A stretch of DNA of 64,000 bases from Patescibacteria group bacterium (GCA_038064835.1 JBBTSD010000001.1:170361-234360); one strand, 5' to 3'. Positions 48,469 to 57,971 are shown, counted from the stretch's first letter. Numbers and translations: made by a program. Notes: generated by a model not told the origin, from the sequence alone.

Positions 48469-48539
48469 TGCCAGATCGTCTAATGGTAGGACTTCAGATT
48501 CTGGATCTGAATATCTTGGTTCGAGTCCAAGTCTGGCAG
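48469..48539 (+). tRNA. tRNA-Gln (CTG), U1:A72 as typical for bacterial tRNA-Gln
   Basis: Acceptor TGCCAGA/TCTGGCA; D-stem GTCT/GGAC; anticodon stem TCAGA/TCTGA with loop TTCTGGA; T-stem CTTGG/CCAAG with loop TTCGAGT; discriminator G. Confidence 0.8.
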
Positions 48540-48550
48540 CTAATCGTAGT

Positions 48551-48907
48551 ATGCAATCAATCTCACTTGACCTCGCAAAGCAACTTCTCGGCAAAGAAGT
48601 GGAAGTGACGATGGATCGGCCGCTGGGTACTAAACATCCCAAACATGGATTCGTGTATGAGGCCAACTATGGCTTTATCGCGGGCGTAAAGGCTCCCGAT
48701 GGAGAAGATCTGGATGCCTATTATTTGGGAGTGAGTGAGCCACTGGAAAAAGCAAAAGGCGTTTGCATAGCCATTGTTCACCGATTTGATAACGACGATG
48801 ACAAGTTGGTGGTAGTGCCTGCCGGAACGCAACTGACTGATGAGGAGATTCGCTCGCAGGTGCACTTTCAGGAACAGTGGTTTAAGAGTGAAGTTTTGCG
48901 GAAATAA
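48551..48907 (+). CDS. hypothetical protein (faint inorganic-pyrophosphatase-like D-G-E-D-L-D segment), first cassette of the island
   Basis: 118 aa from ATG 48551, immediately after tRNA-Gln. The upstream part of ORF 48458.. overlaps the tRNA and was ignored. Confidence 0.45.
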   Translation: MQSISLDLAKQLLGKEVEVTMDRPLGTKHPKHGFVYEANYGFIAGVKAPDGEDLDAYYLGVSEPLEKAKGVCIAIVHRFDNDDDKLVVVPAGTQLTDEEIRSQVHFQEQWFKSEVLRK

Positions 48908-48908
48908 G

Positions 48909-48938
48909 TTCAATGTCGTCCAAGACAGCCAGCAAGTG
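48909..48938 (+). repeat. island repeat copy 1 (consensus AGTTCCAATGTCGYCCAAGACAGCCAG), directly after a stop codon
   Basis: AGTTCAATGTCGTCCAAGACAGCCAGCAAG begins 2 nt after the stop of gene 48551..48907. Confidence 0.6.
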
Positions 48939-48998
48939 ATTTTAGCCCTACTTCGCAAGTGAACATGGTTCGAGTCCTGAGTTTGTTATAATCTAGAC

Positions 48999-49433
48999 AT
49001 GCGGAAGAATCCTCAAGAATTTGACTGGGGTACGGTTGGACTAAATTTTGGAAACTGGGATGAGAAGAAAATTTGGGCGCTCAACATTCCCGAATCCACG
49101 CTAGATATATCTGAGTTAGAATGGCACTTGGACTGTCCATTTTGGGAAAACGACAGCGGAGTGGAATATTCCGTAACTCCTCGTGAAGTACTAGAAAAAA
49201 TTTCAGGAACAACTAACGAACAAGAAAAAGTCGAAAACGCAGACACTAAGCACCCCATTGATATTTACTTTAACAAGAACAAGTGGCTCGTTCTCGATGG
49301 AATTCACAGGCTTGCAAAACTCTATGCTGCCGGGGCAGAAAGAGTGAGGGTAAGAATTATTACTGCAGACACCCTGCCTCTAGTTTCAACAGGTGAACCC
49401 ATTGAAATGCCAACATGGTGGAATAAGTCTTAG
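48999..49433 (+). CDS. ParB/Srx-fold nuclease-like domain protein (LVLDGIHRLAKL motif)
   Basis: 144 aa. D-G-x-H-R motif in a beta-strand/helix context typical of ParB-like N-terminal domains. AT-rich codon usage relative to the core genome. Confidence 0.5.
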   Translation: MRKNPQEFDWGTVGLNFGNWDEKKIWALNIPESTLDISELEWHLDCPFWENDSGVEYSVTPREVLEKISGTTNEQEKVENADTKHPIDIYFNKNKWLVLDGIHRLAKLYAAGAERVRVRIITADTLPLVSTGEPIEMPTWWNKS

Positions 49434-49439
49434 TCAATA

Positions 49440-49470
49440 AAGTTCCAATGTCGCCCCAAACAGCCAGTTC
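49440..49470 (+). repeat. island repeat copy 2
   Basis: AGTTCCAATGTCGCCCCAAACAGCCAGTTC begins 7 nt after the stop of gene 48999..49433. Its CCAAACAGCC segment can pair with GGCTGTTTTGG about 40 nt downstream (49498-49508). Confidence 0.6.
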
Positions 49471-49557
49471 ATAAAATTCGGCTTAATGGAAAAATGTGAG
49501 GCTGTTTTGGCGTAGAATGCTTTGTATAGCAACAAGAAATAGCTAATCAAGGTATGA

Positions 49558-49875
49558 TTTCAAAAAAAGTGCCCGAAATGCAGCTCTAGTAAGACGAAAA
49601 GGAACGGTCATTTTCGCGGTACACAACGATACAAGTGCCGCGATTGCAGTGCGCAGTTTGTCCACGACACTTCAGTGAGCGCGAAGACGCTCTGGCAGCA
49701 CTTTGCATACGAACATGCGACCGCTCCGGTGTTGGCAAAGCGATATCATAAGAGCGCGCGATGGGTGCGAGACCGGCTCGACGAGTACGAGCTACCAGTG
49801 CGTGTGCCGAATCCTCGTGAGATAGTCGCGGTCGCTGAAGCCACCTGGATCCACGGTTCGTGGATGCTCGTTTAA
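49558..49875 (+). pseudogene. IS1 / IS1595-type transposase N-terminal fragment (zinc ribbon + HTH), truncated, no in-frame start
   Basis: Frame translation reads FQKKCPKCSSSKTKRNGHFRGTQRYKCRDCSAQF... and stops after about 105 aa. The only ATG (49554) is in another frame, across an A7 run (TCAAAAAAAG). Confidence 0.55.
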
Positions 49876-50112
49876 CTCCCTCGACGGCTTTTTCAAGAAG
49901 GTGAAGACGGGCGATCAGCATCCATGCAGGACTGACGCACGCACGCAAATTGAAACTCATTACATCATTATTTTATCCGCTTGCATAGCCTCACATTTTT
50001 CCATTAAGCCTAAAATTCAAAAACCAGCGCATTGCGCTGGTTGTGGCGTAAGTCAGCGGAGAAGTGCTTCGCGAACCTCTCGCCAAGATTGCACCTGTCG
50101 AGGAGGAAAGGT

Positions 50113-50231
50113 GACAGGCAGAATTAAATAGACAATCGCAAGGTATAGCGCTACGCAGAGAATGGGCAGAGAATGGGGACAACAGAGAATGGGGACAGGC
50201 ACAATTAAATAGACAACCGCATGGTATAGCG
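50113..50231. repeat. pair of ~38-bp imperfect direct repeats flanking three tandem AGAGAATGGGGA-like units
   Basis: GACAGGCAGAATTAAATAGACAATCGCAAGGTATAGCG (50113-50150) versus GACAGGCACAATTAAATAGACAACCGCATGGTATAGCG (50194-50231). Between them: CAGAGAATGGG CAGAGAATGGGGA CAACAGAGAATGGGGA. An inverted partial copy TGTCCCCGTTGTCCCC lies at 50376-50392. Confidence 0.55.
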
Positions 50232-50449
50232 TTGCCGTGGGTCGCGTTGCCCGGGTCGATTTTGACGATGCTACTTGGGCGACACAGATGGTCGATACAT
50301 ACCATCTGGATGCGACAGCTCGAAGTCCTGGAAGACCGAAAGCAGATTAGGCATAGAATTAAAAAAGAATTGTGTCTGTCCCCGTTGTCCCCCTACACTT
50401 GTTGTACCCCATTTGCCAATACCCGCCATCCGCGATACTATATTTACAC

Positions 50450-50644
50450 ATGAATAGAAGTGTGTTTAAACAACTCGCCCAGGTAATGGAGCAGGGAGAG
50501 AAAGTGCTTTCAAGCCTGAGTAGCGATCAACGAGAAAAACTCGAAAAATCGTGGGATGTTGAGCATGCCTATTACTCCAGTGCTCTAGAAGGAAGTATGC
50601 TGGACAGGAAGGAGTTCGAGAAGCTTGCACAGGGCGTACATTAA
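50450..50644 (+). CDS. small Fic-antitoxin-like protein carrying the inhibitory S-x-x-x-E-G motif (class I FicA/VbhA-like)
   Basis: 64 aa from ATG 50450. YYSSALEGSMLD matches the (S/T)xxxE(G/N) inhibitory-helix motif. Lies 75 nt upstream of the Fic-domain gene, in a different frame. Confidence 0.5.
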   Translation: MNRSVFKQLAQVMEQGEKVLSSLSSDQREKLEKSWDVEHAYYSSALEGSMLDRKEFEKLAQGVH

Positions 50645-50718
50645 AACAGCATGCCTGTGCGGCCGGAAAACGAGGTGGAGCTACAGAAGCGCGAAGCGGC
50701 CGGCGTTATTCGCGCTTT

Positions 50719-51276
50719 GTGCGCAAGCATGCCCATTCGCGTGCGGATATAACATTGGATACCATTTTGGAAATCCATGCTGAAATATTCAAGGAAGCTT
50801 GGCCGGAGATTGCGGGCAAATACCGAATCGCCCCTGTCGAAATAACCAACTCGAAACACCTCCCGCCGCATCATACGGCGGTTCCGGGCCTTATGCTTGA
50901 ACTGGGAAAGGAGCTTGAAGCGCGATTGCAAACACTTGAGCGCGCAGAGGGTATGGTATCGAAAGTCATGGACACTAGTGACGAACGCTTCGGTACGATT
51001 CTCAGACTCCTACAAATCGCTGCGTGGTTGCACCATAAGATCACCCACATCCATCCGTTTTCGGATGGCAATGGCCGGACGGCGCGTCTGGCCGCGAATC
51101 TCATACTGGAACGATATGGACTTGTTGGGCTTTCAATAAAGGTAGAACGGGAGAACAAAGATCGATACCGTGCTGCATTGGCGCAGATGGATTTACACAG
51201 TGACGACGGGCCTCTCCTTGATCTTATGGTCGAAGGGATCATTGAGCGCTATAGCGGAGTTCCCAAGAAGATATAA
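50719..51276 (+). CDS. Fic/Doc-family protein (Fic motif HPFSDGNGRTARL), toxin partner
   Basis: 185 aa from GTG 50719. Canonical HPFx(D/E)GNGRxxR. Preceded by helices ITLDTILEIHAEIF typical of the Fic core. Confidence 0.8.
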   Translation: MRKHAHSRADITLDTILEIHAEIFKEAWPEIAGKYRIAPVEITNSKHLPPHHTAVPGLMLELGKELEARLQTLERAEGMVSKVMDTSDERFGTILRLLQIAAWLHHKITHIHPFSDGNGRTARLAANLILERYGLVGLSIKVERENKDRYRAALAQMDLHSDDGPLLDLMVEGIIERYSGVPKKI

Positions 51277-51379
51277 CTAGGGAAAAGGACGACCAAGGTG
51301 AGGTGTGAGAATAAACACACCTCTCGACAGCGCGTTCGAATGAAATGTTCCGGCAGAGAACTTTTGCTATACTGCGCAT

Positions 51380-51832
51380 GTGAAAGATGTCGTTCAGAAA
51401 CTTGCGCAAGATATCCTCGACAAGGGATATTTTCTCAGTCTTGCGACGCTTGACGGCGGCGGCTTGTGGGTCAGCGATGTCTTCTATGTTGCCGACGACG
51501 AGTGGAATATCTACTGGCTTTCGGCGCGCGACACTCGCCATTCGAAAGCCGTTGAGCAAAACCCCGAAGTTGCGGGAACAATAACCATAACCACAACACC
51601 ACAAGAGCCCAGTGAAGCACTTCAGATAGCGGGGCGTGCTGAAAGAGTCGGCGAAGAGTCGAACGAAATGGTAGAGAAGCTCTTTCTGCAAAAACGCGGC
51701 AAGGAAAAGAAAACCGAAGCAGGTAGAAACAAAGAAAGCCAATCGTGGTACAAACTCACCCCCACAAAGATACGACTGTCACACCAGGAGACATTTAACC
51801 TAGAGAAGCAGGATGTTGCTGTTAAGGGATAA
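51380..51832 (+). CDS. pyridoxamine 5'-phosphate oxidase-like (general stress protein 26-type) FMN-binding split-barrel protein
   Basis: 150 aa. LATLDGGGLWVSDVFYVADD...IYWLSARDTRHSKAVEQNPEVAG pattern of the PNPOx-like family. Confidence 0.65.
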   Translation: MKDVVQKLAQDILDKGYFLSLATLDGGGLWVSDVFYVADDEWNIYWLSARDTRHSKAVEQNPEVAGTITITTTPQEPSEALQIAGRAERVGEESNEMVEKLFLQKRGKEKKTEAGRNKESQSWYKLTPTKIRLSHQETFNLEKQDVAVKG

Positions 51833-51834
51833 AT

Positions 51835-51864
51835 TAGTTCCAACATCACCCAAGACAGCCAGAC
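51835..51864 (+). repeat. island repeat copy 3
   Basis: AGTTCCAACATCACCCAAGACAGCCAGACA begins 3 nt after the stop of gene 51380..51832. Confidence 0.55.
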
Positions 51865-53590: not shown

Positions 53591-53714
53591 TGTGGAGTGA
53601 CCTTTCCGTATCGGGGACGAATAGTGGCAGGGGACTACTCTCCTGTGCCGTTTTCAAGTGAGTCCAGTATCCCGCTCTTCTGCACACCTGTTTGGGGATT
53701 GCCCCATTGCTCAA

Positions 53715-53731
53715 ATACCCCTAGGGGGTAT
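53715..53731. promoter_or_regulatory. CsoR-type operator palindrome upstream of csoR
   Basis: ATACCCC-TAG-GGGGTAT sits 10-26 nt upstream of the csoR ATG. It matches the GC-rich pseudo-palindromes bound by CsoR-family repressors (established knowledge). Confidence 0.6.
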
Positions 53732-53740
53732 ACTACAAGT

Positions 53741-54013
53741 ATGAAAGCAGAAATTAAAAAGAAAGTCCTGCGTCGTCTCAGCATTACTCAAGGCCAGCTT
53801 AAAGGTTTAGGAAAAATGGTTGCTGATGAAAGTTATTGCGTCGACATCATTACCCAAGCAAGTGCGATAAAAGAGGCTCTTTCCGGAGTCGAAAGTCTGA
53901 TTTTGGAAAACCACCTGACTACGCATGTGTTACATCAGATAAAGACGGGAAAAGAAAAGAAAGCCGTCGATGAAATCCTCAAGGTGTACAAGCTCGCTCA
54001 GAAGAAGAAATAG
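53741..54013 (+). CDS. csoR: CsoR/RcnR-family metal-sensing transcriptional repressor
   Basis: About 90 aa from ATG 53741. W-x-Y-C-x-D-I-x-x-Q core (ESYCVDIITQ) and downstream H/C ligands (HL..H). Confidence 0.8.
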   Translation: MKAEIKKKVLRRLSITQGQLKGLGKMVADESYCVDIITQASAIKEALSGVESLILENHLTTHVLHQIKTGKEKKAVDEILKVYKLAQKKK

Positions 54014-54037
54014 TTTAACAACATAGTTATATGTACC

Positions 54038-55585
54038 ATGAGTAACAAGTATCTTTATCTAGGAGGAATCATGCTGTTGGCCGTCGTTGTCTTTGGGACT
54101 ATGGACGGGAGTAATTCGTTGAAGCGTAACATCGCACCCGCGCTACAAAGCACGGTGGTCGAGCTCCAAGATGGGAATACTTACAACCTCACCGCACACT
54201 ACATTACCAAAACAATTGCAGGCAAAGAGCACACAATGCTCGCATACAATAATTCGATCCCTGGTCCTACAATTAAAATCGCACAAGGTGCAGAAATCAC
54301 GATAAACTTCAAGAACGACACTGATCTTCCTGCGCTCCTCCATGCGCACGGCGTGCGCATGGACAACGCGTTTGATGGGTCGCAACTACAGCAGGCAGAA
54401 ATGAAGCCTGGCGAGTCTTTTTCATACAAGCTGAAGTTTCCAGATGCAGGTGTGTATTGGTACCACCCACACGCAAAAGAAGTATTCGGTCAGGGGCTAG
54501 GACTCTATGGCGCGTTTATTGTTTCTCCCAATGACCCCAATTATTTCCCACCGGTAAATCGTGAAATGCCGATATTCCTTTCAGATGTACCCATCGAGAA
54601 AGGAAAGATAGCACTCGACAAGAACACAACAAGCCACTCTCTCATGGGTCACTATGGCAACGTCATGCTGACAAATGGAGAGGATGCATACAATCTTGAT
54701 GCAAAAGCCGGAGAGGTGCTTCGGTTGTATATTGTAAATGCCGCTAACGCTCGTCCGTTTAATTTCGCAATTAGAGGGTTAAAGCTCAAGCTGGTTGGGG
54801 CCGATAGTGGGGCATACGAGAAGGCGTCGTTCGTGGACAGTGTCATTCTCGGACCATCAGAAAGAGCGACCGTAGATGTTCTTGTCTCGGAGGCAGGGGT
54901 GTACGACATACAAAACAAGACACCAGACAGGACCTACCCACTCGGAACCATCTCCGCACGTAATGAAAGTGTCGTCGTGTCATACGCTGAAGAGTTTGGT
55001 GTTCTCCGAGACAACCAAGCAACGATGCAGAGTAGTAATCCATTCAAGGCCCTTGCTGATTCAGAGCCGACTAAACGGCTTGTACTCACGCTTGATATGG
55101 GAGGGAATGGGATGAATATGCAAGGTGGTGGTCATATGATGTCGGACGGCTCCGCGATGGGCGGCCCGATGATGTCGGGCAGTGCAGACGGCATCGAATG
55201 GGATGACACCAACCAGATGATGAATCAGATGTCCAATGCTGATGTAATAAAGTGGAAATTGGTCGATCAAGATACTGGAAAAGCAAACATGGATATTGAC
55301 TGGGTGTTCAAACAAGGAGAACCCGTCAAGATCAGAATCTTCAACGATCCGAAATCGATGCACCCCATGCAACATCCAATCCATTTTCATGGGCAGCGCT
55401 TCCTTGTTGTCGCCCGAGATGGGGTAAAGCAAACTAATCTAGTTTGGAAAGATACTACTTTAGTGAGAGCAGGGGAAACGGTTGATATTGTTCTGGATCC
55501 ATCAAACCCAGGAGAATGGATGGCACACTGCCATATTTCTGAACATCTAGAGGCGGGGATGATGCTCCGGTTTAGAGTGGACTGA
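54038..55585 (+). CDS. multicopper oxidase (CueO/CopA-like)
   Basis: Sec signal. Copper-ligand motifs HAHG, WYHPH, HPIHFHG and HCHISEHLEAGMM. Met/Gly/His-rich insert (GGHMMSDGSAMGGPMMSG). Confidence 0.9.
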   Translation: MSNKYLYLGGIMLLAVVVFGTMDGSNSLKRNIAPALQSTVVELQDGNTYNLTAHYITKTIAGKEHTMLAYNNSIPGPTIKIAQGAEITINFKNDTDLPALLHAHGVRMDNAFDGSQLQQAEMKPGESFSYKLKFPDAGVYWYHPHAKEVFGQGLGLYGAFIVSPNDPNYFPPVNREMPIFLSDVPIEKGKIALDKNTTSHSLMGHYGNVMLTNGEDAYNLDAKAGEVLRLYIVNAANARPFNFAIRGLKLKLVGADSGAYEKASFVDSVILGPSERATVDVLVSEAGVYDIQNKTPDRTYPLGTISARNESVVVSYAEEFGVLRDNQATMQSSNPFKALADSEPTKRLVLTLDMGGNGMNMQGGGHMMSDGSAMGGPMMSGSADGIEWDDTNQMMNQMSNADVIKWKLVDQDTGKANMDIDWVFKQGEPVKIRIFNDPKSMHPMQHPIHFHGQRFLVVARDGVKQTNLVWKDTTLVRAGETVDIVLDPSNPGEWMAHCHISEHLEAGMMLRFRVD

Positions 55586-55658
55586 GCTTTCAAGCGCGGC
55601 GCATGGTCTATTTACTAGCGTAAGTTATCAAAAATGCACAGGCTAAAAAGGAAATACT

Positions 55659-57971
55659 ATGCTCACACAAACCTACAGAGTAAAAGGGATGCACTGCGCG
55701 TCATGTTCCTCAACGATCGAGAAAGCCTTCAAAAAAACGGATGGTGTTGACTTGGCTGAAGTGAACTACGGTACTGAAACCGCAAAGGTATCTTTTGATG
55801 AACAAAAAACGAATCCCCGCGAGCTCTCGAAGAAAATTGAGAAACTTGGCTACTCTCTTATTCTTCCCACCGTAGACCACTCAACAATGTCCGCAGAAGA
55901 AATGGGGATGTCCCCCGACGAGCATGCGGCGCATCTCGGGTTGAAGCAGTCAAAAGAAGAGAAACTGAAAGAAGTTGCGGAAATGAAGACGAAATTACTC
56001 TCCGCAATTCCTATTGCGATTTTTGCGGGCTTCGTTATGAGTTGGGATATCTTGGCACAATTCAAGATTGTTTCTGCGATGCCGTATGTGTGGTCTGAAT
56101 TTTTCCATCACCTACTTCCAGCACTTGCCACCTATGTACTTTTTGTAGTAGGCAAACCATACTTACTGGGCGTGTACCGATTCCTGCGTTACGGCAAAGC
56201 CAACATGGACACATTGATCGGAATCGGAACACTCACGGCCTACCTCTACAGTTTGATGATTGCAGCGCTCGAGACACCACTGCGCTCTTATTTAAATGTC
56301 GAACAAGGTTATTACGATGTGACAATCGTGGTAATTACTTTTATCGCGCTCGGCAAATATCTTGAAGCGAAATCAAAATTAAAAACAGGTGATGCCATTG
56401 AGAAGCTCTTAAATCTGCAGGCAAAGACCGCATTAGTTGTAAGAGACGGCAAAGAGATTGAGATCCCGATTGATAGCGTGGCGCACGGTGAAATAATTGT
56501 CATAAAGCCTGCTTGGAAAATACCTGTCGACGGCACGGTGGTCGATGGTTCCTCATTCGTAGATGAATCAATGGTGACTGGTGAGCCAATGCCTATCAAG
56601 AAGGAGCCCGGAGATTCTGTCGTGGCCGGAACCATCAACACCTCAGGAGCGTTTACTTTTACAGCAACGAAAGTTGGATCAGAAACCCTACTTGCCCAAA
56701 TTATTAAAATGGTCGAAGATGCTCAGGGAAGCAAGGCGCCTATTCAGGCATTGGCTGACAAGATCTCGTCGGTTTTTGTGCCAGCAGTTTTGGTCTTGGC
56801 CGTCATCACCCTTGATGCGTGGCTGCTTTTCGGTACGCCGTACTTAGGATTTTCACAGGCACTCTCGTATGGCCTGGTTTCTTTCGTGGGAATCTTGGTC
56901 ATCGCGTGTCCGTGCGCCTTGGGACTCGCCACACCAACCGCGATCATCGTGGGGGTAGGTAAAGGTGCGCGCGAAGGGATTTTAGTGAAGGATGCGGCAA
57001 CTTTGGAAAAACTTCATAAAGTAAATACGGTAGTCGTAGATAAAACGGGAACTCTTACTCGAGGAAAGCCCGAACTGGCATCAATAAAAAATCTTTCGGG
57101 AAAATCAGAACACGAACTCATTTCGATATTGGCTGGATTGGAAAATAAGTCTGAACATCCGATTGCCCACGCCATTGTCTCATCTGCCAAAGACAGGGGA
57201 ATCGATCTCCCCGCGGTTGCCGATTTTGAAGCCATAAAAGGCAAAGGAGTAAAAGGACACATTGATAGCGTTGAATACTATGCAGGCAATACGAAACTGA
57301 TACAAGACCTTTCAATCAACTTTGACATCGAATCAATCGTCCAAGAGACAGCCGAAGGCAAAACGCCGGTCTTGCTCGCGACAAAAAAGGAGCTCTTGGG
57401 AGTTTTCATGGTTGCGGATGCGATAAAACCCGAAGCGATTGAAGCGGTAAAGAATCTGCACGCGCTGGGGATACAGGTGGTGATGTTAACTGGCGACAAC
57501 AAAAATACTGCGCGTTATATCGCAGGCCAGGTTGGCATTGATGAAGTGGTGGCTGAAGTTATGCCGGCTGAAAAGCTTGCCAAAATCGTCGAATTACAAA
57601 GCAGGGGTCACATTGTTGCCATGGCCGGAGATGGCGTCAATGACGCGCCAGCACTAGCCCAAGCTGATGTAGGTATCGCCATGGCCACGGGGACCGATGT
57701 GGCGATTGAGAGCGCAGGCATTACCTTGCTTCACGGAGACATCTCTAAACTGGTACAGGCCATACGACTGTCAAAACTTACCATGCGTGGGATCAAGCAG
57801 AATTTATTCTGGGCGTTCATCTACAATATTATTGGAATCCCTCTGGCGAGCGGAGTATTTTTCCCGCTCTTTGGCTGGCTGTTGTCCCCCGTTTTTGCGG
57901 GATTTGCTATGGCTATGTCGAGCGTGTCAGTAGTCGGGAATTCACTGCGCCTAAAGGTCAAAAAAATATAG
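55659..57971 (+). CDS. copA: copper-translocating P1B-type ATPase
   Basis: N-terminal HMA (GMHCASCSS), TM CPC motif, DKTGTLT phosphorylation site, GDGVNDAP hinge. Confidence 0.95.
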   Translation: MLTQTYRVKGMHCASCSSTIEKAFKKTDGVDLAEVNYGTETAKVSFDEQKTNPRELSKKIEKLGYSLILPTVDHSTMSAEEMGMSPDEHAAHLGLKQSKEEKLKEVAEMKTKLLSAIPIAIFAGFVMSWDILAQFKIVSAMPYVWSEFFHHLLPALATYVLFVVGKPYLLGVYRFLRYGKANMDTLIGIGTLTAYLYSLMIAALETPLRSYLNVEQGYYDVTIVVITFIALGKYLEAKSKLKTGDAIEKLLNLQAKTALVVRDGKEIEIPIDSVAHGEIIVIKPAWKIPVDGTVVDGSSFVDESMVTGEPMPIKKEPGDSVVAGTINTSGAFTFTATKVGSETLLAQIIKMVEDAQGSKAPIQALADKISSVFVPAVLVLAVITLDAWLLFGTPYLGFSQALSYGLVSFVGILVIACPCALGLATPTAIIVGVGKGAREGILVKDAATLEKLHKVNTVVVDKTGTLTRGKPELASIKNLSGKSEHELISILAGLENKSEHPIAHAIVSSAKDRGIDLPAVADFEAIKGKGVKGHIDSVEYYAGNTKLIQDLSINFDIESIVQETAEGKTPVLLATKKELLGVFMVADAIKPEAIEAVKNLHALGIQVVMLTGDNKNTARYIAGQVGIDEVVAEVMPAEKLAKIVELQSRGHIVAMAGDGVNDAPALAQADVGIAMATGTDVAIESAGITLLHGDISKLVQAIRLSKLTMRGIKQNLFWAFIYNIIGIPLASGVFFPLFGWLLSPVFAGFAMAMSSVSVVGNSLRLKVKKI

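What the first reader, a model, noticed from the sequence alone, without database searches (positions are those of the whole stretch)
50450..51276. Class-I Fic toxin with a separately encoded SxxxEG inhibitory-helix protein (FicTA-like) rather than a frameshifted Fic gene
The 185-aa gene has a canonical HPFSDGNGRTARL Fic motif. 75 nt upstream, in another frame, a 64-aa ORF contains YYSSALEGSM. This matches the (S/T)xxxE(G/N) inhibitory motif that in class I systems (VbhA/VbhT, FicA/FicT) sits on a small antitoxin and blocks ATP gamma-phosphate positioning. At first glance the pair looks like a single Fic gene broken by a TAA stop (50642) plus a frameshift. The motif placement and the clean 64-aa size argue instead for a genuine two-gene toxin-antitoxin module. 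The upstream region also carries iteron-like repeats, which could be autoregulatory operators.
Basis: partly seen in the sequence, partly recalled or inferred. Interest (0 to 1): 0.55.

Follow-up and report, generated by a model that had tools for sequence, protein, structure and literature searches.

The report
Split Fic toxin-antitoxin pair, toxin frameshifted
This is a two-gene Fic enzyme-plus-inhibitor module found widely in Patescibacteria and descended from a one-piece Fic protein; in this genome the small inhibitor gene is intact but the Fic gene is broken by a recent 7-base deletion, so the pair is an ordinary, decaying member of a known kind of system.

Summary
The ORFs and motifs are real. 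A 64-aa ORF (50450-50644) carries SSALEG. A Fic ORF carries HPFSDGNGRTAR (51052-51087). The two-gene reading holds. The 64-aa protein belongs to a stand-alone family in which SS[ATV][LI]EG occurs in 44 of 44 aligned members. In 8 of 8 loci retrieved through the Fic protein, and in 70 of 80 retrieved through the small protein, it lies about 10 nt upstream of a ~215-aa Fic gene. The relative frame is 23/24/23, so the TAA is an old, genuine stop.

Three corrections apply. (1) The Fic gene starts at ATG 50651, 6 nt after the TAA. The "75-nt spacer" is its 5' end. (2) The Fic gene is frameshifted here by a 7-bp deletion at 50708-50710. That deletion is absent from a ~95%-identical relative and present in six other assembled contigs. 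The annotated 185-aa ORF is a truncated remnant. (3) The pair is not related to VbhA/VbhT. It is colinear with single-chain class II Fic proteins and closest to FICD, so it is a class II enzyme split after its inhibitory helix.

The upstream repeats are real but absent from relatives. Verdict: new, unannotated member of a known kind (class-I-type FicTA), with a decayed toxin. Moderate interest.

The parts
50413..50441 (+). Promoter-like site TTGCCA-17 nt-TACTAT, ending 8 nt before the ATG of the small gene (probable leaderless or near-leaderless transcript)
   Evidence: the only sigma-70-like match in 49400-51500. The site is conserved in L001 and L173. Many relatives have a TATAAT-like box 5-10 nt upstream of the ATG. 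Promoter function is inferred, not shown.
50450..50644 (+). Small inhibitor (antitoxin-like) gene, 64 aa plus TAA; intact
   Evidence: About 90 homologs, mostly exactly 64 aa. NCBI calls it hypothetical protein MEK7627990.1. dN/dS against L001 is 0.08. The AF2 model has three helices (3-21, 25-46, 53-61) at pLDDT 88.
50576..50593 (+). Codons S43-S44-A45-L46-E47-G48, the [S/T]xxxE[G/N] inhibitory motif at the C-terminal end of predicted helix 2
   Evidence: D36, H39, A40, Y41, Y42, S43, S44, E47 and G48 are invariant in 44 sequences.
50651..50716 (+). 5' fragment of the Fic gene: the true start codon and codons 1-22 (MPVRPENEVELQKREAAGVIRA). After the deletion this frame runs on to a stop at 50750-50752.
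   Evidence: alignment with homologs of 213-216 aa; family HMM positions 1-22, E 2e-6. The frame is shown.
50708..50710 (+). Site of a 7-bp deletion (TCCGTGC in relative L173) that shifts the Fic reading frame
   Evidence: L001 and L173 both carry the 7 extra bases and read ...GVIRASRFVRK uninterrupted. An identical deletion is present in L002-L006 and L172.
50710..51276 (+). 3' fragment of the Fic gene, codons 23 to the end, in the shifted frame. The annotated 185-aa ORF starts at GTG 50719, the first start codon in this frame.
   Evidence: PF02661, E 3.6e-19; family HMM positions 21-209, E 2e-88; dN/dS 0.03 against L001, with no further lesions.
51052..51087 (+). Fic signature HPFSDGNGRTAR, i.e. 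canonical HxFx(D/E)GNGRxxR
   Evidence: The motif is canonical in 48 of 49 family members.
50106..50389 (.). Local repeats upstream: 2 x 45 nt, 3 x ~15 nt CAGAGAATGGGGACA, and an inverted partner at 50368-50389. They are adjacent to the module but not part of the conserved module.
   Evidence: real, with 0 of 100 shuffles reaching 3 copies. They are absent upstream of the module in L173 and L001, where similarity to the window begins at the -35 box.

Best explanation
The locus is a bicistronic Fic module of the class I (toxin-antitoxin-like) architecture. It belongs to a family that is widespread in Patescibacteria.

In intact relatives the layout is as follows. A promoter sits directly upstream of the ATG. 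It drives a 64-aa three-helix protein, followed about 10 nt later by a ~215-aa Fic AMP-transferase.

By analogy with VbhA/VbhT, FicA/FicT and FICD, the small protein is expected to dock on the Fic core. Its invariant Glu47 sits at the end of helix 2. That residue would reach the second arginine of HPFx(D/E)GNGRxxR. This would occupy the ATP gamma-phosphate site and keep AMPylation off. Free Fic would then modify a cellular target.

The family arose by fission of a single-chain class II Fic. The break falls in the loop just after the inhibitory helix.

In this genome a recent 7-bp deletion after codon 22 frameshifts the Fic gene. What remains is an intact inhibitor gene plus a toxin pseudogene. 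At best the remnant is an N-terminally truncated protein lacking helix 1.

Shown here: gene structure, conservation, colinearity with class II, and the lesion. Inferred: binding, inhibition, toxicity, promoter activity, and loss of function.
For: Two-gene module:
- Homologs of the Fic part are 203-247 aa and start at MxxRPxNExELQKREAIGVIRASRF, which is window 50651. None covers the 64-aa part.
- The small protein has about 90 stand-alone homologs. An exhaustive HMM search found 31 representatives with no fused forms among them: 29 are 41-112 aa, and the two longer ones (155 and 494 aa) match only in short repeated stretches.
- Adjacency holds in 8 of 8 Fic-first loci.
- Of 80 small-protein-first loci, 55 have an intact Fic and 15 have a Fic cut by the contig end. 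The median gap is about 10 nt. Relative frames are 23/24/23.

Motifs: SS[ATV][LI]EG is present in 44 of 44 small proteins. The canonical Fic motif is present in 48 of 49 Fic proteins. There is no conserved intrinsic [ST]xxxE[GN] in the Fic proteins. The motif lies at a helix C-terminus, as described for EcFicA (PMC5033356).

Fission of a class II Fic:
- 47 of 49 relatives at about 27-38% identity (the best 50 loci, minus the one true family member) carry a canonical S-x-x-[IL]-E-G motif in the same open frame, 19 residues before the residue that aligns with Fic residue 1.
- hhalign places the small family (residues 14-59) on class II residues 14-59 (E 2e-6). It places the Fic family on residues 75-237 (E 8e-37).
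- One BLASTP alignment spans the junction (36% identity, E 6e-27).
- The closest solved relative is FICD: sequence E 4e-14 against VbhT 2e-4, and Foldseek E 1.7e-8 against 1.6e-4.

Lesion:
- The 7-bp deletion is seen against L001 and against the ~95%-identical L173.
- It is identical in six other assembled contigs (L002-L006 and L172), from four sample sets.
- It disrupts the reading through the invariant A22-S23-R24-F25 block.

Recurrent toxin loss with the small gene retained: in 8 of 80 loci the Fic gene is internally deleted, truncated or absent.
Against: - No binding, inhibition or toxicity data exist for this family. A co-fold could not be run.
- The small protein shows no detectable sequence or fold similarity to VbhA or FicA.
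- The remaining 188 codons of Fic show no further damage, and dN/dS against L001 is 0.03. A functional truncated product therefore cannot be excluded.
- NCBI annotates a 173-aa Fic protein here, not a pseudogene.
- The loci showing a decayed toxin were found through the small protein. The opposite case, Fic without the small gene, was sampled in only 8 loci.
Confidence: 0.75

Rival explanations
1. The locus is an intact class I module: the 185-aa protein starting at GTG 50719 is the functional toxin, and the 74 nt before it are an intergenic spacer.
For: - The 185-aa ORF is open, keeps the full Fic core and motif, and shows no secondary lesions.
- The same sequence occurs in several samples.
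- NCBI calls it a Fic family protein.
Against: - All close homologs start about 29 residues earlier with a strongly conserved helix. E15, G18, A22, S23, R24 and F25 are invariant; R14, A16 and R21 are nearly invariant.
- The 'spacer' encodes exactly that helix, interrupted by a 7-bp deletion.
- GTG 50719 has no recognisable ribosome-binding site and lies inside the shifted 33-codon ORF.
- In the AF2 model, helix 8-30 is part of the fold.
Confidence: 0.12
2. The pair is not a toxin-antitoxin system. It is a two-chain version of a FICD-like bifunctional enzyme. The small subunit's glutamate is needed for deAMPylation as well as for blocking AMPylation. The subunits would then work together as a reversible regulator of a housekeeping target.
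For: - The closest solved relative is FICD.
- In FICD, Glu234 blocks AMPylation and is required for deAMPylation (PMC6826200).
- The pair is colinear with class II enzymes.
- Both genes are under strong purifying selection.
Against: - Genomic context is highly variable: 144 Pfam families among 126 neighbouring ORFs.
- The most frequent neighbour families are Zeta toxin and AAA_33 (4 ORFs each), followed by type I R-M subunits, a further Fic, Peptidase_M23 and NUDIX (3 each). An integrase, an IS1595 transposase and TOTE/DGR genes each lie beside one locus. This fits a mobile selfish or defence module.
- Fic is repeatedly lost while the small gene is kept (and this window). That is the decay pattern expected for a toxin and its antidote.
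Confidence: 0.2
3. A single class II Fic gene was recently pseudogenised by a TAA nonsense mutation plus a frameshift. This is the alternative the reader argued against.
For: - In this window the 64-aa ORF and the Fic 5' fragment happen to share a frame, separated only by TAA-AAC-AGC.
- Distant relatives are single ORFs colinear with both pieces.
Against: - The stop is conserved in every family member examined.
- The two genes sit in all three relative frames equally. In the 85%-identical L001 they are in different frames.
- No fused member exists.
- The small gene's dN/dS is 0.08.
Confidence: 0.02
4. The frameshift is a sequencing or assembly artefact and the Fic gene is intact in the organism.
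For: Most of the contigs that carry it come from low-coverage metagenomes. For example, the ENA contig names record coverage of 3.
Against: - The identical 7-bp deletion appears in the NCBI MAG, three Logan assemblies of different runs, and two ENA assemblies.
- A 7-bp deletion outside any homopolymer is not a typical Illumina or assembler error.
Confidence: 0.03

Closest known systems
Class I Fic toxin-antitoxin modules: VbhA/VbhT (Bartonella) and FicA/FicT, e.g. EcFicA(YhfG)/EcFicT
   Same: - A small (~55-70 aa) helical protein is encoded immediately upstream of the Fic gene in one operon.
- It carries [S/T]xxxE[G/N] at the end of a helix.
- The Fic protein has the canonical motif and no inhibitory helix of its own (definitions in PMC3667792 and PMC5033356).
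   Different: - There is no detectable sequence or fold similarity between the 64-aa family and VbhA or FicA.
- The Fic part is much closer to FICD and class II than to VbhT.
- The small protein aligns with the N-terminal ~60 residues of class II proteins. It includes a long helix before the inhibitory helix.
- The family has a ~22-residue insertion between the helix that follows the flap and the helix that precedes the active-site motif.
- The target is unknown.
- In this window the toxin gene is frameshifted.
Single-chain class II Fic proteins: bacterial and archaeal ~245-aa proteins such as L017 (Chloroflexi MAG), and FICD/HYPE
   Same: - Homologous and colinear over both pieces. hhalign gives E 2e-6 for the small protein and 8e-37 for Fic. 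BLASTP across the junction gives 36% identity.
- The inhibitory motif is at the same distance from the Fic core.
- These are the best structural matches.
   Different: - Here the inhibitory helix is on a separate polypeptide. The stop codon and restart are conserved, and the reading frame is unconstrained.
- The motif is SSALEG rather than SNA[IL]EG(N).
- The loop GLTIGGK, where the split occurs, is replaced by the C-terminus of one protein and the MxxRP N-terminus of the other.
Fic-domain anti-phage defence candidates: PADLOC models SoFic and PDC-S04
   Same: - Fic-domain similarity: E 4e-19 to SoFic and 3e-19 to PDC-S04.
- Some relatives of this module sit in conflict-system neighbourhoods. 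Two lie between hsdS and hsdR of type I R-M operons. Others lie next to TOTE, Zeta toxin or an integrase.
   Different: - The similarity is at the level of the generic Fic domain only.
- Those models describe single-chain proteins.
- No viral-contig copies were found.
- No defence phenotype is known for this family.
- The window's own neighbours are not defence genes.

Membership tests
Class I Fic (architecture-defined; Engel 2012 as summarised in PMC3667792 and PMC5033356) | Fic protein with the canonical HxFx(D/E)GNGRxxR signature | tested here: met
   HPFSDGNGRTAR at 51052-51087. The signature is canonical in 48 of 49 family members.
Class I Fic (architecture-defined) | No [S/T]xxxE[G/N] inhibitory helix within the Fic polypeptide itself | tested here: met
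   The window's Fic has none. At most 6 of 49 homologs share a match at any one alignment column.
Class I Fic (architecture-defined) | A small protein carrying [S/T]xxxE[G/N] is encoded immediately upstream of the Fic gene | tested here: met
   In the window it spans 50450-50644 and ends 6 nt before ATG 50651. The arrangement is conserved in 8 of 8 Fic-first loci and 70 of 80 small-protein-first loci. The motif is present in 44 of 44 aligned members.
Class I Fic (architecture-defined) | The small protein binds the Fic protein and blocks AMPylation through the motif glutamate; an E-to-G change relieves inhibition | not testable with these tools
There is only indirect support: the motif sits at a helix C-terminus, and E47 and the Fic R2 are both invariant.
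Type II toxin-antitoxin module | An intact, potentially toxic enzyme gene is paired with its antidote in this genome | tested here: not met
   The Fic gene carries a 7-bp frameshifting deletion at 50708-50710. The module is intact in most relatives. Toxicity was not tested.
Type II toxin-antitoxin module | Autoregulation of the operon by antitoxin binding to operator repeats | tested here: inconclusive
   The repeats upstream are not conserved in L173 or L001. The 64-aa protein has no recognisable DNA-binding domain. There is no positive evidence either way.
VbhA/FicA antitoxin and FicT/VbhT toxin sequence families | Detectable homology of the small protein to VbhA/FicA, and of the Fic protein to the FicT/VbhT clade above other Fic proteins | tested here: not met
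   - No VbhA or FicA hit in Pfam or NCBIfam, in PDB sequences or by fold.
- NCBIfam VbhT scores E 0.063.
- FICD outranks VbhT by 10 orders of magnitude in sequence and 4 in Foldseek E-value.
Class II Fic | The inhibitory helix is N-terminal to the Fic core within the same polypeptide | tested here: not met
   The stop codon between the pieces is conserved. Relative frames are 23/24/23. No fused member was found.
Class II Fic | Sequence homology and colinearity with class II proteins over both the inhibitory helix and the Fic core | tested here: met
   The finding therefore descends from class II but no longer has the class II architecture.

The most novel reading that the evidence does not exclude
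The class I ('antitoxin in trans') Fic architecture arose independently in Patescibacteria. A FICD-like class II enzyme was cleanly split just after its inhibitory helix. The resulting two-chain enzyme keeps FICD-like dual behaviour: the small subunit's glutamate both blocks AMPylation and supports deAMPylation. The small subunit's stoichiometry would then act as a switch. Some lineages exploit this as a back-up weapon inside type I restriction-modification operons. This window would be a recently disarmed copy, with its inhibitor kept as an antidote.
Probability: 0.25. Interest if true: 0.55.

Novelty: new member of a known kind. Interest (0 to 1): 0.35.

Why it matters
- It gives a name and a likely role to an unannotated family of 64-aa 'hypothetical proteins' with no Pfam domain. 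The family is common in Patescibacteria genomes.
- It shows that the Fic classes I and II describe gene architecture rather than separate lineages. Here a class II enzyme has become a class-I-type two-gene module.
- It offers a natural pair for testing how a cis-acting inhibitory helix works in trans.
- For annotating this genome, the practical points are these. The Fic gene (called as 185 or 173 aa) is a frameshifted remnant. Its real start is 50651. The locus probably retains only the inhibitor.

Tried and rejected
No complex model was obtained.
- Foldseek of the isolated 64-aa model gave only noise, with E above 4.
- The PDB sequence search with the small-family profile returned only keratin coiled coils, which share LEG by chance.
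- Pfam on 44 members gave only sub-threshold hits. The most recurrent were DUF4172, PEX-2N and COX_ARM (6 of 44 members each); DUF4172 scored best at E 0.0097.
- The genome-contig scan was swamped by a generic GNGRTARL pattern. Only 1 of 80 loci was a true family member. The rest turned out to be useful as class II comparators.
- No copies were found on viral contigs.
- Rfam found nothing credible in 49300-50700.
- I considered a slipped 7-nt tandem repeat (TCGCGCT x2) as the origin of the deletion, and hence a possible reversible switch. I dropped it because the closest relative L173 reads TCCGTGCTTCGCG, which is not a perfect repeat.
- I considered programmed -1 frameshifting or stop-codon read-through. 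I rejected both: there is no slippery heptamer at the site, and the relative frames across the family are random.
- I considered the upstream repeats as operators. I rejected this as unsupported, because they are absent in relatives that share the promoter.

Full report
WHAT IS IN THE SEQUENCE

ATG 50450 to TAA 50642-50644 encodes 64 aa:
MNRSVFKQLAQVMEQGEKVLSSLSSDQREKLEKSWDVEHAYYSSALEGSMLDRKEFEKLAQGVH.
SSALEG lies at 50576-50593.

GTG 50719 to 51276 encodes 185 aa. This ORF matches Pfam Fic (PF02661, E 3.6e-19) and contains HPFSDGNGRTAR at 51052-51087.

A single [ST]xxxE[GN] is not rare. It occurs in 6.6% of shuffles of this 64-aa sequence. The motif in this one sequence therefore proves little.

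In the same frame as the 64-aa ORF, 6 nt after its TAA, ATG 50651 opens MPVRPENEVELQKREAAGVIRA.... This frame then runs into a stop at 50750-50752.

THE FIC GENE IS ABOUT 215 AA, STARTS AT 50651, AND IS FRAMESHIFTED HERE

I searched with a conceptually repaired 275-aa sequence. The search returned 853 proteins. Apart from the window's own 185-aa call, the best 120 are 203-247 aa long and cover only the C-terminal ~75% of the query.

Aligned, these proteins all begin MxxRPxNExELQKREAIGVIRASRFVRK. That is the peptide encoded from 50651. None extends into the 64-aa region.

Two relatives define the lesion:
- L001 is 85% identical in DNA and encodes a 216-aa Fic.
- L173 is about 95% identical and comes from the same groundwater site.

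Against both, the window lacks 7 bp (TCCGTGC in L173) at 50708-50710. The deletion moves the reading from ...GVIRA into the frame of the 185-aa ORF at the invariant A22-S23-R24-F25 block. The family HMM confirms this. Positions 1-22 match the 50651 frame and positions 21-209 match the shifted frame.

The deletion is identical in the NCBI MAG, in three Logan assemblies of separate runs, and in two ENA assemblies. It is therefore a real allele, not an assembly slip.

The lesion is probably recent, for three reasons:
- L173 is intact.
- The remaining 188 codons carry no other lesion.
- dN/dS against L001 is 0.03, although dS is saturated.

GTG 50719 is simply the first start codon in the shifted frame. 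A protein made from it would lack nearly all of helix 1, which spans residues 8-30 in the AF2 model of the intact homolog (pLDDT 82).

THE 64-AA ORF IS A GENUINE, SEPARATE, CONSERVED GENE

It has 91 homologs at E <= 0.01, most of them exactly 64 aa. Where sources give a name, it is only 'hypothetical protein'.

I ran an exhaustive profile search over 1.84 billion representative proteins. It found 31 hits. All true ones are small, and none is fused to a Fic domain.

In an alignment of 44 members, D36, H39, A40, Y41, Y42, S43, S44, E47 and G48 are invariant. All 44 carry SS[ATV][LI]EG.

AF2 predicts three helices (3-21, 25-46, 53-61; pLDDT 88). The motif sits at the C-terminal end of helix 2. 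This is the same placement described for the inhibitory segment of EcFicA (PMC5033356).

Gene order is conserved:
- Eight of eight loci retrieved through the Fic protein have the small gene 0-15 nt upstream.
- Of 80 metagenomic loci retrieved through the small protein, 55 have an intact Fic gene directly downstream and 15 have a Fic gene cut by the contig end.
- The median gap is about 10 nt.
- The relative frame of the two genes is 23/24/23.

The stop codon is therefore ancient. The shared frame seen in this window is coincidence, and read-through is not selected for.

The Fic family has no conserved inhibitory motif of its own. It has a canonical HxFx(D/E)GNGRxxR signature in 48 of 49 members.

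By the architecture-based definition (PMC3667792, PMC5033356, PMC5651007), this is a class I Fic system.

WHERE IT COMES FROM

The family is not related to VbhA/VbhT or FicA/FicT beyond the common Fic fold.
- The small protein hits no VbhA or FicA model and no PDB sequence or fold.
- The Fic part is closest to class II FICD/HYPE. By sequence, E is 4e-14 against 2e-4 for VbhT. By Foldseek, E is 1.7e-8 with TM 0.7, while VbhT ranks 40th.

The next-nearest relatives in reference genomes share 27-38% identity. They come from many bacterial and archaeal phyla and are single ORFs of about 245 aa.
- In 47 of 49 examined, a canonical S-x-x-[IL]-E-G motif (mostly S[NT]A[IL]EG) lies in the same open frame, 19 residues before the residue that aligns with Fic residue 1.
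- In the window the corresponding distance is 22 residues.

Profile-profile comparison gives:
- small family residues 14-59 on class II residues 14-59 (E 2e-6, probability 89%);
- the Fic family on class II residues 75-237 (E 8e-37).

A single BLASTP alignment of the concatenated L001 pair against one class II protein runs straight across the junction (36% identity, E 6e-27).

The simplest reading is that a class II Fic gene was split once. The split falls in the loop after the inhibitory helix, and it happened at the root of this family. So far the family carries only Patescibacteria/CPR names. That makes the split an old fission, not a pseudogene.

HOW IT MOST LIKELY WORKS

This section is inference from the characterised systems.

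TTGCCA-17-TACTAT (50413-50441) ends 8 nt before the ATG. It is conserved in L001 and L173. Many relatives have a TATAAT-like box 5-10 nt upstream of the ATG. This suggests a leaderless bicistronic transcript.

The small protein would wrap the Fic core and place Glu47 against the second arginine of the signature. That would occupy the gamma-phosphate site, so ATP binds non-productively (mechanism in PMC3667792 and PMC5033356). Free Fic would then AMPylate an unknown target.

Three observations fit a selfish or defence-type toxin-antidote pair better than a housekeeping enzyme:
- The neighbourhood is highly variable: 144 Pfam families among 126 neighbouring ORFs.
- The most frequent neighbour families are Zeta toxin and AAA_33 (4 ORFs each), followed by type I R-M subunits, a further Fic, Peptidase_M23 and NUDIX (3 each). 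An integrase, an IS1595 transposase, and TOTE and DGR genes each lie beside one locus. In two genomes the module sits between hsdS and hsdR.
- Fic is repeatedly lost while the small gene is retained. This occurs in 8 of 80 loci (6 distinct sequences), plus this window.

An alternative deserves weight because FICD is the nearest solved relative. In FICD the same glutamate is also required for deAMPylation (PMC6826200). The complex could therefore be a switchable AMPylase/deAMPylase.

THE UPSTREAM REPEATS

They are real: 2 x 45 nt, 3 x ~15 nt, and an inverted partner. They lie outside the conserved unit. Similarity to L173 and L001 starts at the -35 box, and L173 has a different gene (PRiA4_ORF3 domain) upstream. 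The 64-aa protein has no DNA-binding domain. Nothing supports an operator role. The repeats belong to a ~1-kb gene-poor stretch that also contains a 27-nt inverted repeat pair. It looks like debris of a mobile element.

VERDICT

Three statements are wrong:
- that the Fic gene is not frameshifted;
- that the 185-aa ORF and the 75-nt spacer are real features;
- that the module is akin to VbhA/FicA.

This is a new, unannotated member of a known kind. It has an instructive origin, by fission of a class II Fic. In this genome its toxin gene has recently been inactivated.

Noticed in passing
window 49434-50450: A stretch of about 1 kb with no credible gene, which is unusual in this otherwise dense genome. 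It holds a 27-nt inverted repeat pair (49477-49503 and 49987-50013, 96% complementary). The pair flanks 483 nt containing a 66-aa ORF (49675-49875) with no Pfam hit. A minus-strand terminator-like hairpin lies at 50042-50022. The 45-nt and 15-nt repeats are also here. Possibly the remains of a mobile element.
   Followed up: partly
window 48902-48932, 49437-49467, 51832-51862: A 31-nt motif, AAGTTC(C)AATGTCG..CCAAGACAGCCAG, recurs three times (74% identity to the reference copy). Each copy starts at or just after the end of a gene. It may be an intergenic REP-like or terminator-associated element.
   Followed up: no
window 48469-48540: tRNA-Gln(ctg) lies 2 kb upstream of the module. It overlaps the 5' end of the mechanically listed 149-aa ORF. 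G+C falls to 0.42-0.45 over 48750-49750. The region downstream of the tRNA could be an integrated island, but no att-like repeat of the tRNA end was found.
   Followed up: partly
window 53597-57971: A copper or metal resistance cluster lies just downstream: a CsoR-like repressor (Trns_repr_metal), a multicopper oxidase (515 aa) and a heavy-metal P-type ATPase (770 aa). This is in a genome that NCBI labels as a Patescibacteria group bacterium.
   Followed up: no
L009:1-6654 and L012:75-5529: In two different genomes the small-gene/Fic pair is inserted between hsdS and hsdR of a type I restriction-modification operon. L009 additionally has an SduA_C-domain gene. This is the position that, from my own knowledge, the PrrC anticodon nuclease occupies in EcoprrI. 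It hints at a back-up defence role.
   Followed up: partly
L114:278-753; L152:790-1155 (= L153); L157:278-436; L129, L162, L168 (= L169): These are independent cases in which the small gene is intact but the Fic gene is internally deleted (active site lost), truncated after 33-48 codons, or absent. They parallel the lesion in the window.
   Followed up: yes
L092:1510-1878; also two other neighbouring ORFs counted: Some relatives carry a second Fic-domain ORF within a few kb of the module. Four loci carry a Zeta-toxin gene next to it. This suggests clustering of toxin modules.
   Followed up: no
Fic family, P0002 residues ~99-120 (window about 50940-51005): The family has an insertion of about 22 residues relative to class II proteins. 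It lies between the helix that follows the flap and the helix that precedes the active-site motif. Model confidence is low there (pLDDT 58 over residues 101-110). Its function is unknown.
   Followed up: no
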